A stretch of 64,000 nt of DNA from Escherichia coli (GTDB lineage: Bacteria; Pseudomonadota; Gammaproteobacteria; Enterobacterales; Enterobacteriaceae): the NCBI RefSeq assembly GCF_003334405.1, contig NZ_QOWM01000013.1; one strand, given 5' to 3'. The position numbers are program-made. Below are positions 35,101-38,100 of the stretch, piece by piece (position 1 is the stretch's first letter; each line of letters begins with the position of its first letter).

Positions 35101-38100
35101 ATACCGATAGAGAATACAGGGTCCACAATGTCCCTCATGTCACCATTTTGTCTGATTATCAGTTTACTAGCGAAAGCTAAGAAATAAACCTACCATTGAA
35201 ATTAAAACTTATCAGATTTAGCATGTGAATCAATTTAGAAGGTCACAAGACGTGTGATTTTAGTCTTTTCGTTTTTAACTTTTTCTGTTGCGTAACGGAA
35301 AGTCAAAAAGTGAGCAAATTCCCGTCTCGCCGTAAACAATAAACCGGCGAAATGCTCACGGTTAGAATTGTCTCATGAACGGTACGGTTATTTCATAGGG
35401 ATCAAGCAAAATGAATAACAATGAACCAGATACTCTGCCTGATCCCGCGATAGGCTATATCTTCCAGAATGATATTGTGGCGTTAAAGCAGGCATTTTCA
35501 CTGCCTGATATTGATTATGCCGATATTTCCCAACGCGAACAGTTGGCCGCGGCATTAAAACGCTGGCCGTTGCTGGCAGAGTTTGCGCAACAAAAGTAGG
35601 GGATTGGTGAATGGCCGTACTGGGATTGCAGGGGGTGCGGGGAGGCGTGGGGACAACAACCATCACCGCCGCATTAGCCTGGTCATTACAAATGTTGGGA
35701 GAAAATGTCCTGGTGGTCGATGCCTGCCCGGACAACTTGTTGCGCCTGTCATTTAATGTTGATTTTACCCACCGTCAGGGCTGGGCCAGAGCGATGCTGG
35801 ATGGCCAGGACTGGCGTGACGCTGGGTTGCGCTACACCTCGCAGCTCGATTTGCTGCCTTTTGGTCAGTTATCCATTGAAGAACAAGAAAATCCACAGCA
35901 CTGGCAAACCCGGCTGAGCGATATTTGCTCCGGCTTACAGCAACTAAAAGCCAGCGGGCGTTACCAGTGGATTTTAATCGACTTACCGCGTGATGCCTCG
36001 CAGATAACCCACCAGCTGCTGAGTTTGTGCGATCACTCGCTGGCAATCGTCAATGTGGATGCCAACTGCCATATCCGACTGCATCAGCAAGCGCTGCCGG
36101 ATGGCGCACATATTTTGATTAATGACTTCCGTATTGGCAGTCAGGTTTAGGACGATATTTACCAGCTTTGGTTGCAAAGCCAGCGCCGATTACTGCCGAT
36201 GCTCATTCATCGTGATGAAGCGATGGCTGAATGCCTGGCGGCTAAGCAACCAGTAGGTGAATATCGCAGTGATGCGCTGGCGGCTGAAGAGATACTGACG
36301 CTGGCGAACTGGTGCCTGTTGAACTACTCCGGGCTGAAAACGCCAGTCGGGAGTGCATCATGAGTATCCTGACCCGGTGGTTGCTTATCCCGCCGGTCAA
36401 CGCGCGGCTTATCGGGCGTTATCGCGATTATCGTCGTCACGGTGCGTCGGCTTTCAGCGCGACGCTCGGCTGTTTCTGGATGATCCTGGCCTGGATTTTT
36501 ATTCCGCTGGAGCACCCGCGCTGGCAGCGTATTCGCGCAGAACATAAAAACCTGTATCCGCATATCAACGCCTCGCGTCCGCGTCCGCTGGACCCGGTCC
36601 GTTATCTCATTCAAACATGCTGGTTATTGATCGGTGCATCGCGCAAAGAAACGCCGAAACCGCGCAGGCGGGCATTTTCAGGTCTGCAAAATATTCGTGG
36701 ACGTTACCATCAATGGATGAACGAGCTGCCTGAGCGCGTTAGCCATAAAACACAGCATCTGGATGAGAAAAAAGAGCTCGGTCATTTGAGTGCCGGGGCG
36801 CGGCGGTTGATCCTCGGTATCATCGTCACCTTCTCGCTGATTCTGGCGTTAATCTGCGTTACTCAGCCGTTTAACCCGCTGGCGCAGTTTATCTTCCTGA
36901 TGCTGCTGTGGGGGGTAGCGCTGATCGTACGGCGGATGCCGGGGCGCTTCTCGGCGCTAATGTTGATTGTGCTGTCGCTGACCGTTTCTTGCCGTTATAT
37001 CTGGTGGCGTTACACCTCTACGCTGAACTGGGACGATCCGGTCAGCCTGGTGTGCGGGCTTATTCTGCTCTTCGCTGAAACGTACGCGTGGATTGTGCTG
37101 GTGCTCGGCTACTTCCAGGTAGTATGGCCGCAGAATCGTCAGCCGGTGCCATTGCCGAAAGATATGTCGCTGTGGCCGTCGGTGGATATCTTTGTCCCGA
37201 CTTACAACGAAGATCTCAACGTGGTGAAAAATACCATTTACGCCTCGCTGGGTATCGACTGGCCGAAAGATAAGCTGAATATCTGGATCCTTGATGACGG
37301 CGGCAGGGAAGAGTTTCGCCAGTTTGCGCAAAACGTGGGGGTGAAATATATCGCCCGCACCACTCATGAACATGCGAAAGCAGGCAACATCAACAATGCG
37401 CTGAAATATGCCAAAGGCGAGTTCGTGTCGATTTTCGACTGCGACCACGTACCAACGCGATCGTTCTTGCAAATGACCATGGGCTGGTTCCTGAAAGAAA
37501 AACAGCTGGCGATGATGCAGACGCCGCACCACTTCTTCTCACCGGACCCGTTTGAACGCAACCTGGGGCGTTTCCGTAAAACGCCGAACGAAGGCACGCT
37601 GTTCTATGGTCTGGTGCAGGATGGCAACGATATGTGGGACGCCACTTTCTTCTGCGGTTCCTGTGCGGTGATTCGTCGTAAGCCGCTGGATGAAATTGGC
37701 GGCATTGCTGTCGAAACCGTGACTGAAGATGCGCATACTTCTCTGCGGTTGCACCGTCGTGGCTATACCTCCGCGTATATGCGTATTCCGCAGGCGGCGG
37801 GGCTGGCGACCGAAAGTCTGTCGGCGCATATCGGTCAGCGTATTCGCTGGGCGCGCGGGATGGTACAAATCTTCCGTCTCGATAACCCGCTCACCGGTAA
37901 AGGGCTGAAGTTTGCTCAGCGGCTATGTTACGTCAACGCCATGTTCCACTTCTTGTCGGGCATTCCACGGCTGATCTTCCTGACTGCGCCGCTGGCGTTC
38001 CTGCTGCTTCATGCCTACATCATCTATGCGCCAGCGTTGATGATCGCCCTATTCGTGCTGCCGCATATGATCCATGCCAGCCTGACCAACTCCAAGATCC

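What the first reader, a model, noticed from the sequence alone, without database searches (positions are those of the whole stretch)
36148..36150. In-frame amber codon at codon 180 of bcsQ splits the ParA/MinD-like gene into 179 + 70 codons
From ATG 35611 the frame reads MAVLGLQGVRGGVGTTT... for 179 codons and hits TAG (36148-36150). The same frame then stays open for 70 more codons and ends in the ATGA overlap with bcsA, which indicates a recent nonsense mutation rather than a natural end. Laboratory K-12 strains are known to be cellulose-negative because of a premature stop in bcsQ that is polar on bcsA. My recollection is that the published K-12 lesion lies near the 5' end (codon 6, TTG to TAG). 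Codon 6 here is TTG (35626-35628), so the stop seen here may be a different lesion or my recollection of the position may be wrong.
Basis: partly seen in the sequence, partly recalled or inferred. Interest (0 to 1): 0.6.

Follow-up and report, generated by a model that had tools for sequence, protein, structure and literature searches.

The report
Natural bcsQ nonsense mutation, decaying operon
A real single-base change (CAG to TAG) cuts short the cellulose-secretion gene bcsQ in an E. coli strain closely related to K-12; it is a different mutation from the K-12 one, and it appears to be the first of several that have disabled this strain's cellulose operon, which is a common and well-documented kind of gene loss.

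Summary
Codon 180 of bcsQ (window 36148-36150) is TAG. The frame then stays open for 70 more codons to the ATGA overlap with bcsA.

- **Wild type:** the codon is CAG (Gln) in K-12, E. coli C and the closest complete genomes. Only 1 of 5,426 complete RefSeq E. coli genomes (WEM25) carries the T, and its bcsQ is annotated as a pseudogene with an internal stop.
- **Not the K-12 lesion:** K-12 has TAG at codon 6. The window has TTG there.
- **Not a sequencing error:** independent assemblies match the window exactly over 14.8 to 20.5 kb.
bcsC carries a private 335-bp frameshifting deletion. bcsA, bcsB and bcsZ carry four private missense changes.
- **Order of events:** sister contigs carry the TAG alone, so Q180* most likely came first and the operon then decayed.
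- **Recurrence:** the same C-to-T change occurs on at least two other bcsQ haplotypes.

Loss-of-function mutations in bcs genes are already well documented, for example Q178* in ST95. I rate this a new allele of a known kind and of low interest. Repairing the TAG alone should not restore cellulose production.

The parts
35411..35599 (+). bcsR (yhjR), intact
   Evidence: Its protein is identical to that of the closest complete genome, L003.
35611..36363 (+). bcsQ pseudogene: 250 codons in wild type, interrupted here at codon 180
   Evidence: The same lesion in WEM25 is annotated by NCBI's PGAP pipeline as a pseudogene with 'internal stop'.
35626..35628 (+). Codon 6, TTG (Leu), the site of the K-12 amber lesion; wild type here
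   Evidence: MG1655 has TAG. PMC5944007. PMC7397504.
35611..36150 (+). Truncated ORF encoding BcsQ residues 1-179. It keeps the deviant Walker A motif GVRGGVGTTT and residues N152, R156 and N171.
   Evidence: This exact 179-aa product is on record from at least 25 public contigs.
36148..36150 (+). Amber codon TAG, from a C-to-T change at 36148 (Gln180 CAG to TAG)
   Evidence: Only WEM25 among 5,426 complete genomes has the T.
36151..36363 (+). Untranslated remnant of bcsQ: codons 181-250 plus TGA. It ends in the ATGA overlap with bcsA.
   Evidence: It matches NF007460 positions 181-250 (E = 5e-42) and TIGR03371 positions 186-245. No in-frame restart codon has a Shine-Dalgarno sequence upstream.
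36360..38978 (+). bcsA, open, with the private missense change L258Q (T to A at 37132)
   Evidence: Its own GGGAG Shine-Dalgarno sequence lies at 36347-36351, 8 nt upstream of the ATG.
38989..41328 (+). bcsB, open, with the private missense changes N160S (39467) and H177Y (39517)
41335..42441 (+). bcsZ, open, with the private missense change N103Y (41641)
42423..42665 (+). bcsC 5' remnant: 80 codons, then TAG TAG, created by the frameshift
42648..42657 (+). Junction of a 335-bp deletion inside bcsC, between the imperfect direct repeats GCGATATTG and GCGCTATTG
   Evidence: The junction is absent from all 5,426 complete genomes. It is present in L005 and L010.
42666..45561 (+). Out-of-frame remainder of bcsC. 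It has no signal peptide, and it carries one more private SNP at 44986.
31703..35138 (-). Divergent bcsEFG operon, intact: bcsG 31703-33382, bcsF 33379-33570, bcsE 33567-35138
   Evidence: No amino-acid differences from L003.

Best explanation
The TAG at 36148-36150 is a natural C-to-T nonsense mutation (Gln180 to amber) in bcsQ. BcsQ is the MinD/ParA-like (SIMIBI-class) ATPase that E. coli needs to secrete cellulose. The strain is a wild relative of K-12, 19 SNPs and 2 indels away from MG1655 over the 64 kb.

**Predicted effect (inferred).**
- The product lacks the last 71 of 250 residues, about a quarter of the folded domain. It is predicted to be non-functional, so the strain should be cellulose-negative.
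- Translational coupling into bcsA through the ATGA overlap is lost.

**Order of events.**
- The mutation was most likely the first hit in this lineage.
- With the pathway dead, the downstream genes then evolved without constraint. They picked up four missense changes in bcsA, bcsB and bcsZ and a 335-bp frameshifting deletion in bcsC.
- That deletion makes the loss irreversible by simple reversion of the TAG.

**What is shown:** the mutation, its ancestral state, its independence from the K-12 allele, its presence in independent assemblies, the additional lesions, and the existence of relatives that carry only the TAG.

**What is inferred:** loss of BcsQ function, the cellulose-negative phenotype, relaxed selection, and the exact order of events.
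For: **The lesion itself**
- The sequence and its translation show the in-frame TAG.
- CAG is the ancestral state in E. coli C, K-12 and the closest genome L003.
- Only 1 of 5,426 complete genomes has the T. That genome is WEM25, where bcsQ is annotated as a pseudogene with an internal stop.
- K-12 has TAG at codon 6 instead (PMC5944007; PMC7397504).

**What the truncation removes**
- The downstream 70 codons match the BcsQ family models at positions 181-250 of 250.
- The Pfam family CBP_BcsQ spans residues 1-236.
- E. coli BcsQ crystal structures leave only about the last 10 residues disordered (PMC7840130).
- BcsQ, BcsR and BcsC are each reported as required for cellulose secretion (PMC7840130; PMC8892547).

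**Independent assemblies**
- L005 (GCA_024592625.1) and L010 (ERR4578754 plus 6 more samples) are 100% identical to the window over 20.5 kb and 14.8 kb. Both include the bcsC deletion.

**Order of events and decay**
- Contigs L009, L012 and L013 have the same haplotype with the TAG but none of the other five SNPs or the deletion.
- 6 of 9 window-private SNPs fall in bcsQABZC, which is 20.7% of the compared length. The binomial P is 0.0037, or 0.012 with the TAG excluded. All four SNPs in still-open frames are missense.

**Known phenomenon**
- Convergent bcs loss-of-function mutations occur in 74 of 76 common sequence types, including BcsQ Q178* in ST95 (PMC10881479).
Against: - No phenotype data exist for this strain.
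- No experiment on a BcsQ truncated at residue 179 was found in the papers read.
- The ATP-binding residues (Walker A, N152, R156, N171) are all retained, so residual or altered activity is not formally excluded.
- Low-level natural read-through of UAG would insert Gln and so regenerate wild-type protein. An amber suppressor elsewhere in the genome cannot be checked from this window. The only tRNA here is tRNA-Pro.
- The SNP-enrichment test rests on nine SNPs and has no genome-wide baseline.
- The inference that the TAG came first assumes that L009, L012 and L013 are true relatives and not recombinants.
Confidence: 0.9

Rival explanations
1. The TAG is a sequencing or assembly error, and the gene is really intact.
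For: It is a single-base difference from many otherwise identical genomes.
Against: - The same base, in an identical 14.8-20.5 kb context, appears in an NCBI draft assembly and in assemblies of at least 7 further sequencing runs.
- By coordinates, the window cannot come from the NCBI contig: it would run past that contig's end.
- The T is also present in the complete genome of WEM25.
- The operon carries further lesions that fit a truly dead pathway.
Confidence: 0.01
2. The gene still works. Either an amber suppressor tRNA or natural read-through inserts Gln at UAG and restores wild-type BcsQ, or the two halves (1-179 and a restarted C-terminal piece) assemble into a split protein.
For: - TAG replaces CAG, so Gln-inserting suppression would give exact wild-type protein.
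- The downstream frame is still open.
- In-frame TTG and ATG codons exist at 36172, 36199 and 36223.
Against: - None of the possible restart codons has a Shine-Dalgarno sequence upstream.
- No suppressor tRNA lies in the window. Suppressors are rare in natural isolates (general knowledge).
- The downstream genes show missense accumulation and a frameshifting deletion in bcsC. That is what a non-functional pathway predicts.
- NCBI's PGAP pipeline treats the same allele as a pseudogene.
Confidence: 0.03
3. The TAG is a late, secondary hit. The operon was first killed by the bcsC deletion or by a missense change, and bcsQ decayed afterwards.
For: Multiple lesions coexist in the window. Order cannot be read from one sequence.
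Against: - Three independent contigs on the same haplotype (L009, L012, L013) carry the TAG with ancestral bases at 37132, 39467, 39517, 41641 and 44986 and an intact bcsC.
- No sequence was found that has the deletion or the missense changes without the TAG.
Confidence: 0.05
4. The allele is a laboratory construct or a mutagenised K-12 derivative, for example an amber allele made in a repaired K-12 background such as AR3110.
For: - The window is very close to MG1655 (99.97% identical) and shares the IS150 in the hokA locus.
- Codon 6 is TTG, as in the repaired strain AR3110.
Against: - 19 SNPs and 2 indels separate the window from MG1655 over 64 kb. Most lie outside bcs and are shared with wild isolates such as L003.
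- The TAG haplotype occurs in many unrelated sequencing projects and metagenome assemblies.
- The TAG also occurs on other natural haplotypes.
Confidence: 0.02

Closest known systems
E. coli K-12 bcsQ amber allele (codon 6, TTG to TAG; repaired in strain AR3110)
   Same: - It is the same gene and the same stop codon type (amber).
- It has the same predicted outcome, loss of cellulose production.
- It is in the same phylogroup A / K-12-like chromosomal background.
- K-12 also shows extra private SNPs in bcsB and bcsC.
   Different: - The position differs: codon 180, not codon 6. The window has wild-type TTG at codon 6, and K-12 has wild-type CAG at codon 180.
- Here 179 residues can still be made, and only 209 nt are left untranslated before bcsA, against about 735 nt in K-12. 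Any polar effect should therefore be weaker.
- K-12 can be rescued by repairing the one codon (PMC7397504). This strain also has a frameshifted bcsC.
BcsQ Q178* of ST95 extra-intestinal pathogenic E. coli, and the wider set of convergent bcs loss-of-function mutations (Nat Commun 2024, PMC10881479)
   Same: - It is a nonsense mutation two codons away, giving a 177-aa product against 179 aa here.
- It is a natural allele carried by a clone.
- It belongs to a documented pattern of repeated, independent inactivation of the cellulose genes.
- The 177-aa product sits in the same 90%-identity protein cluster.
   Different: - The codon and the lineage differ: phylogroup B2 ST95 against a K-12-like phylogroup A strain.
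- Q180* is not mentioned in the main text or in the supplementary files held as text, which were cut when stored.
- No link to virulence is known for the present lineage.
E. coli WEM25 bcsQ pseudogene (NZ_CP061530.1)
   Same: It has the identical C-to-T change at codon 180 and is annotated 'internal stop'.
   Different: - Its bcsQ haplotype differs at 6 other sites in the gene and at 56 sites over 12 kb.
- The nearest flanking differences lie only 112 bp and 179 bp from the TAG.
- Its haplotype with CAG exists in several complete genomes, 1 mismatch away over 1,353 bp. This points to an independent origin.
- WEM25 has no bcsC deletion and none of the four missense changes.

Membership tests
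BcsQ / YhjQ cellulose biosynthesis ATPase (NCBIfam NF007460, TIGR03371; Pfam PF06564 CBP_BcsQ) | Sequence matches the family model end to end | tested here: met
   With codon 180 read as Gln, the protein scores 542.9 bits against a cutoff of 399 on NF007460, covering positions 1-250 of 250. On PF06564 it gives E = 6.5e-115 over model positions 1-234 of 234. It is nearly identical to PDB chains 6YBU and 6YAR.
BcsQ / YhjQ cellulose biosynthesis ATPase (NCBIfam NF007460, TIGR03371; Pfam PF06564 CBP_BcsQ) | Deviant Walker A motif G8-VRGGVGTTT and ATP-contacting residues N152, R156, N171 | tested here: met
   Residues 8-17 read GVRGGVGTTT. N152, R156 and N171 are present, and all lie upstream of the stop. 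The motif and residues are as described in PMC7840130 and PMC8892547.
BcsQ / YhjQ cellulose biosynthesis ATPase (NCBIfam NF007460, TIGR03371; Pfam PF06564 CBP_BcsQ) | Gene order bcsR-bcsQ-bcsA-bcsB-bcsZ-bcsC, divergent from bcsEFG | tested here: met
BcsQ / YhjQ cellulose biosynthesis ATPase (NCBIfam NF007460, TIGR03371; Pfam PF06564 CBP_BcsQ) | Uninterrupted ORF of about 250 codons, that is, a functional member and not a pseudogene | tested here: not met
   TAG at codon 180. The 179-aa product scores 381.6 bits, below the NF007460 cutoff of 399. It is a pseudogene of the family.
K-12-type bcsQ lesion | TAG at codon 6 (nt 17 T>A) | tested here: not met
   Codon 6 is TTG in the window and TAG in MG1655.
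Natural bcs loss-of-function alleles (convergent cellulose attenuation, PMC10881479) | [quoted passage not shown] | tested here: met
   bcsQ Q180* and the bcsC 335-bp frameshift.
Natural bcs loss-of-function alleles (convergent cellulose attenuation, PMC10881479) | The allele is carried by a clone, seen in several isolates, and is not a one-off | tested here: met
   The identical multi-lesion genotype occurs in GCA_024592625.1 and in at least 7 sequencing runs. The exact 179-aa product is on at least 25 contigs.
Natural bcs loss-of-function alleles (convergent cellulose attenuation, PMC10881479) | Cellulose-negative phenotype | not testable with these tools
   This needs calcofluor or Congo-red assays on the strain.

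The most novel reading that the evidence does not exclude
Q180* would be a recurrently selected 'off switch' and not a random hit. The same C-to-T change has arisen on at least three bcsQ haplotypes, and a neighbouring Q178* marks an ST95 clade. The truncation keeps the whole ATP-binding site. BcsQ(1-179) might therefore retain a partial or dominant-negative activity, for example by titrating BcsR or BcsE. As a single-base change, it could also act as a revertible switch before secondary lesions lock the state in.
Probability: 0.08. Interest if true: 0.4.

Novelty: new member of a known kind. Interest (0 to 1): 0.15.

Why it matters
- **For annotation:** bcsQ and bcsC in this window should both be called pseudogenes, and the strain should be predicted cellulose-negative.
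- **For experiments:** unlike K-12, where repairing one codon gave the cellulose-proficient strain AR3110, repairing the amber codon alone should fail here because bcsC is frameshifted.
- **For evolution:** two sister lineages, K-12 and this one, lost bcsQ by different amber mutations and then both accumulated changes in bcsB and bcsC. The same Q180* change also recurs on unrelated haplotypes. This is a small, clean example of the convergent loss of cellulose production already described across E. coli, Shigella and Salmonella. It adds no new mechanism.

Tried and rejected
- **Structure prediction.** A single-sequence AlphaFold2 model of repaired BcsQ, meant to map what the truncation removes, gave pLDDT 45. 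That is too poor to use. I relied instead on the published crystal structures.
- **Rho-dependent polarity.** The 209 nt after the TAG are G-rich (G 31%, C 24%) with no C>G stretch. The consensus scan found no more terminator-like sites than shuffled sequence would give. There is therefore no sequence support for strong polarity.
- **Dcm hotspot.** The context GTTCAGGAC is not a CCWGG site on either strand (read), so 5-methylcytosine deamination does not explain the recurrence.
- **A published name for Q180*.** The main text and held supplementary files of PMC10881479 contain no 'Q180'. A search for the WGS prefix JANJGP found no paper.
- **A hotspot for truncations near codon 180.** The 90%-identity cluster holds products of 165, 167, 174, 177, 179 and 181 aa. 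Clustering by length coverage would produce that pattern by itself, so it is not evidence of a hotspot.
- **Source identification.** The window has no exact match over bcsQ, and its bcsC deletion junction is absent, in the 5,426 complete RefSeq E. coli genomes. It cannot come from contig JANJGP010000018.1 either.
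Full report
**1. The observation**

- From ATG 35611 the frame reads MAVLGLQGVRGGVGTTT... for 179 codons.
- It meets TAG at 36148-36150.
- It then continues open for 70 codons (36151-36360) to TGA 36361-36363, which overlaps the bcsA ATG at 36360-36362.
- Codon 6 (35626-35628) is TTG.

Read through the TAG, the translation is BcsQ. With Gln at position 180 it scores 542.9 bits on NCBIfam NF007460 (cutoff 399), covering positions 1-250 of 250. 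It is almost identical to the crystallised E. coli BcsQ, PDB 6YBU and 6YAR.

The 70-codon tail alone matches model positions 181-250 with E = 5e-42. It also matches the broader TIGR03371 family model at positions 186-245 with E = 3e-19. Pfam CBP_BcsQ spans residues 1-236. The natural end of the protein is therefore at about residue 250. The TAG is an interruption.

**2. Ancestral state and frequency**

bcsQ of E. coli C differs from the window at one base only: nt 538, C there and T here. K-12 MG1655 differs at two bases: nt 17 (codon 6, TAG in K-12 and TTG here) and nt 538 (CAG in K-12 and TAG here). The change is therefore CAG (Gln180) to TAG.

I searched with a 41-nt query centred on the T, so that every 28-nt seed must include that base. 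It found one genome among 5,426 complete RefSeq E. coli genomes, strain WEM25. The bcsQ of WEM25 is annotated as a pseudogene with 'internal stop'.

It is codon 6, TTG to TAG (17 T>A). It was repaired to give the cellulose-proficient strain AR3110 (PMC5944007; PMC7397504).

**3. Not an error, and carried by a clone**

The exact 179-aa product is indexed in 44 blocks of the public assembly collection and is recorded on at least 25 contigs. NCBI protein records such as HAN3886891.1 name it 'YhjQ, partial'.
- L005 is an NCBI draft assembly (GCA_024592625.1, contig JANJGP010000018.1). It is 100% identical to the window over 20,540 bases.
- L010 is an assembly of run ERR4578754 and is seen in 7 samples. 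It is 100% identical over 14,789 bases.
- By coordinates, the window would run off the end of the NCBI contig. It therefore comes from a different assembly of the same clone.

**4. What the strain is**

The window is collinear with K-12 MG1655 from xylA to ccp. Over 64 kb it differs by 19 SNPs and two indels. It shares the IS150 in the hokA/sokA locus. It is a close wild relative of K-12, not K-12 itself.

**5.

I compared the window with the closest complete genome, Z1323CEC0010 (L003), which has the same haplotype as many phylogroup A isolates. Over 48 kb the window differs by 11 mismatches and a 335-bp deletion.

The deletion:
- It lies inside bcsC, between the imperfect direct repeats GCGATATTG and GCGCTATTG, with its junction at 42648-42657.
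- It shifts the frame and ends bcsC after 80 codons at TAG TAG (42663-42668).
- No complete RefSeq genome has this junction. L005 and L010 do.

The SNPs inside bcsQABZC are all non-synonymous where the frame is still open:

| Gene | Change | Window position |
|---|---|---|
| bcsQ | Q180* | 36148 |
| bcsA | L258Q | 37132 |
| bcsB | N160S | 39467 |
| bcsB | H177Y | 39517 |
| bcsZ | N103Y | 41641 |
| bcsC (after the frameshift) | one further SNP | 44986 |

bcsR and bcsE, bcsF and bcsG encode proteins identical to the reference.

Polarised with both K-12 and L003, 6 of the 9 window-private SNPs between 12000 and 60000 fall in bcsQABZC. That operon is 20.7% of the compared length. The binomial P is 0.0037, or 0.012 when the ascertained TAG is left out. 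The sample is small and has no genome-wide baseline. The pattern is nonetheless what relaxed selection on a dead operon predicts.

**6. Order of events**

Contigs L009, L012 and L013 carry the same local haplotype with the TAG. They have the ancestral base at all five other SNP sites and an intact 1,157-aa bcsC. No sequence was found with the other lesions but without the TAG. The most economical reading is that Q180* came first and the rest followed on one sub-branch. The TAG-only contigs also carry their own private SNPs in bcsZ and bcsC.

**7. Recurrence**

The TAG also sits on clearly different haplotypes.
- WEM25 and L008 differ from the window at 56 sites over roughly 11-12 kb. Their nearest differences are 112 bp upstream and 179 bp downstream of the TAG.
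- L014 differs at 80 sites.
- L006 and L007 also differ.

The WEM25-type and L014-type 1,353-bp haplotypes each have complete-genome matches that differ by a single base. In those backgrounds the TAG is best explained by independent C-to-T mutation, not by recombination.

The site is not a Dcm (CCWGG) site. Given how many E. coli genomes have been sequenced, and given that loss of cellulose production is repeatedly favoured or tolerated, this recurrence is unremarkable. The same protein cluster holds other truncated BcsQ products: 177 aa on 125 contigs, 165 aa on 45, 174 aa on 23, and 181 aa on 5.

**8. Mechanism**

BcsQ is a SIMIBI-class (MinD/ParA-like) ATPase. It forms an ATP-bound BcsR2Q2 complex, docks BcsE, contacts the PilZ domain of BcsA, and is required for cellulose secretion and for detectable BcsA. 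Its seven-stranded sheet and flanking helices are ordered to within about 10 residues of the C-terminus (PMC7840130; PMC8892547).

Removing residues 180-250 takes away roughly a quarter of the folded domain. I infer an unstable or inactive product, even though the Walker A motif and N152, R156 and N171 are retained.

Termination 209 nt upstream also removes translational coupling at the ATGA overlap. I found no sequence support for strong Rho-dependent polarity: the gap is short and G-rich, and bcsA has its own GGGAG Shine-Dalgarno sequence.

Independently of bcsQ, disruption of bcsC is reported to abolish cellulose secretion (PMC8892547). The strain is therefore predicted to be cellulose-negative for two separate reasons. 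Reverting the TAG alone should not rescue it.

**9. Rivals**
- **Sequencing error:** excluded by the independent assemblies described in section 3.
- **Functional rescue by suppression or a split protein:** this cannot be excluded from the window alone. The only tRNA here is tRNA-Pro. It is made unlikely by the absence of a ribosome-binding site for any restart and by the decay of the downstream genes.
- **A laboratory origin:** unlikely, given the SNP pattern shared with wild isolates and the spread of the allele across unrelated sequencing projects.

**10. Comparison with what is known, and verdict**

The closest known cases are:
- the K-12 codon-6 amber allele, in the same gene with the same outcome at a different position;
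- BcsQ Q178* in ST95, within the broad convergent loss of bcs function reported in 74 of 76 common E. coli sequence types, in all Shigella sequence types examined, and in 90 of 100 Salmonella sequence types examined (PMC10881479).

I found no paper that names Q180*. The allele is already in public protein and genome records.

The finding is real and correctly interpreted. It is a new allele of a well-known kind. Its main added value is the correction that the whole bcsQABZC operon in this strain, not only bcsQ, is decaying.

Noticed in passing
window 42423-45561 (junction 42648-42657): bcsC carries a 335-bp deletion between the imperfect direct repeats GCGATATTG and GCGCTATTG. It frameshifts the gene after codon 80, with TAG TAG at 42663-42668. 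The junction is absent from all 5,426 complete RefSeq E. coli genomes but present in L005 and L010.
   Followed up: yes
window 37132, 39467, 39517, 41641, 44986: There are private point changes in bcsA (L258Q), bcsB (N160S, H177Y) and bcsZ (N103Y), plus one in the frameshifted part of bcsC. All those in open frames are missense. I did not test whether they hit conserved residues.
   Followed up: partly
window 39482, 39540, 39658, 43746 (the K-12 bases differ): K-12 MG1655 has its own private SNPs in bcsB (three) and bcsC (one), in addition to its codon-6 amber. The two sister lineages, each with a different bcsQ amber, both show extra changes in the downstream genes.
   Followed up: partly
window about 9689-11131: An IS150 copy (283-aa and 173-aa ORFs on the minus strand) sits in the hokA/sokA locus between glyS and cspA. 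This is the same position as in K-12 MG1655.
   Followed up: partly
window about 23130-23237, next to tRNA-Pro (23072-23148): K-12 MG1655 has 168 extra bases here that the window and L003 lack. They consist of a second copy of the 3' end of proK with its terminator region, plus a roughly 60-bp insert. It looks like a duplication or an integration scar at the tRNA.
   Followed up: no
other genomes: NZ_CP025842.1 (720632), NZ_CP086391.1 (1585m1), NZ_CP024155.1 (14EC047); L001 (E. coli C): The cellulose genes are knocked out by other routes elsewhere. Three complete genomes have IS1 insertions in or next to bcsQ. E. coli C has an internal stop in bcsE and a frameshift in bcsA.
   Followed up: no
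L006 6093-7772; L006-L014 bcsE and bcsB calls: In metagenome contig L006, which carries the TAG, bcsG is split into 304-aa and 246-aa products. This may be a further independent bcs lesion. Several TAG-bearing contigs also have shorter gene calls for bcsE (519 or 501 aa) and bcsB (767 or 770 aa). I did not check whether these reflect start-codon choice or real changes.
   Followed up: no
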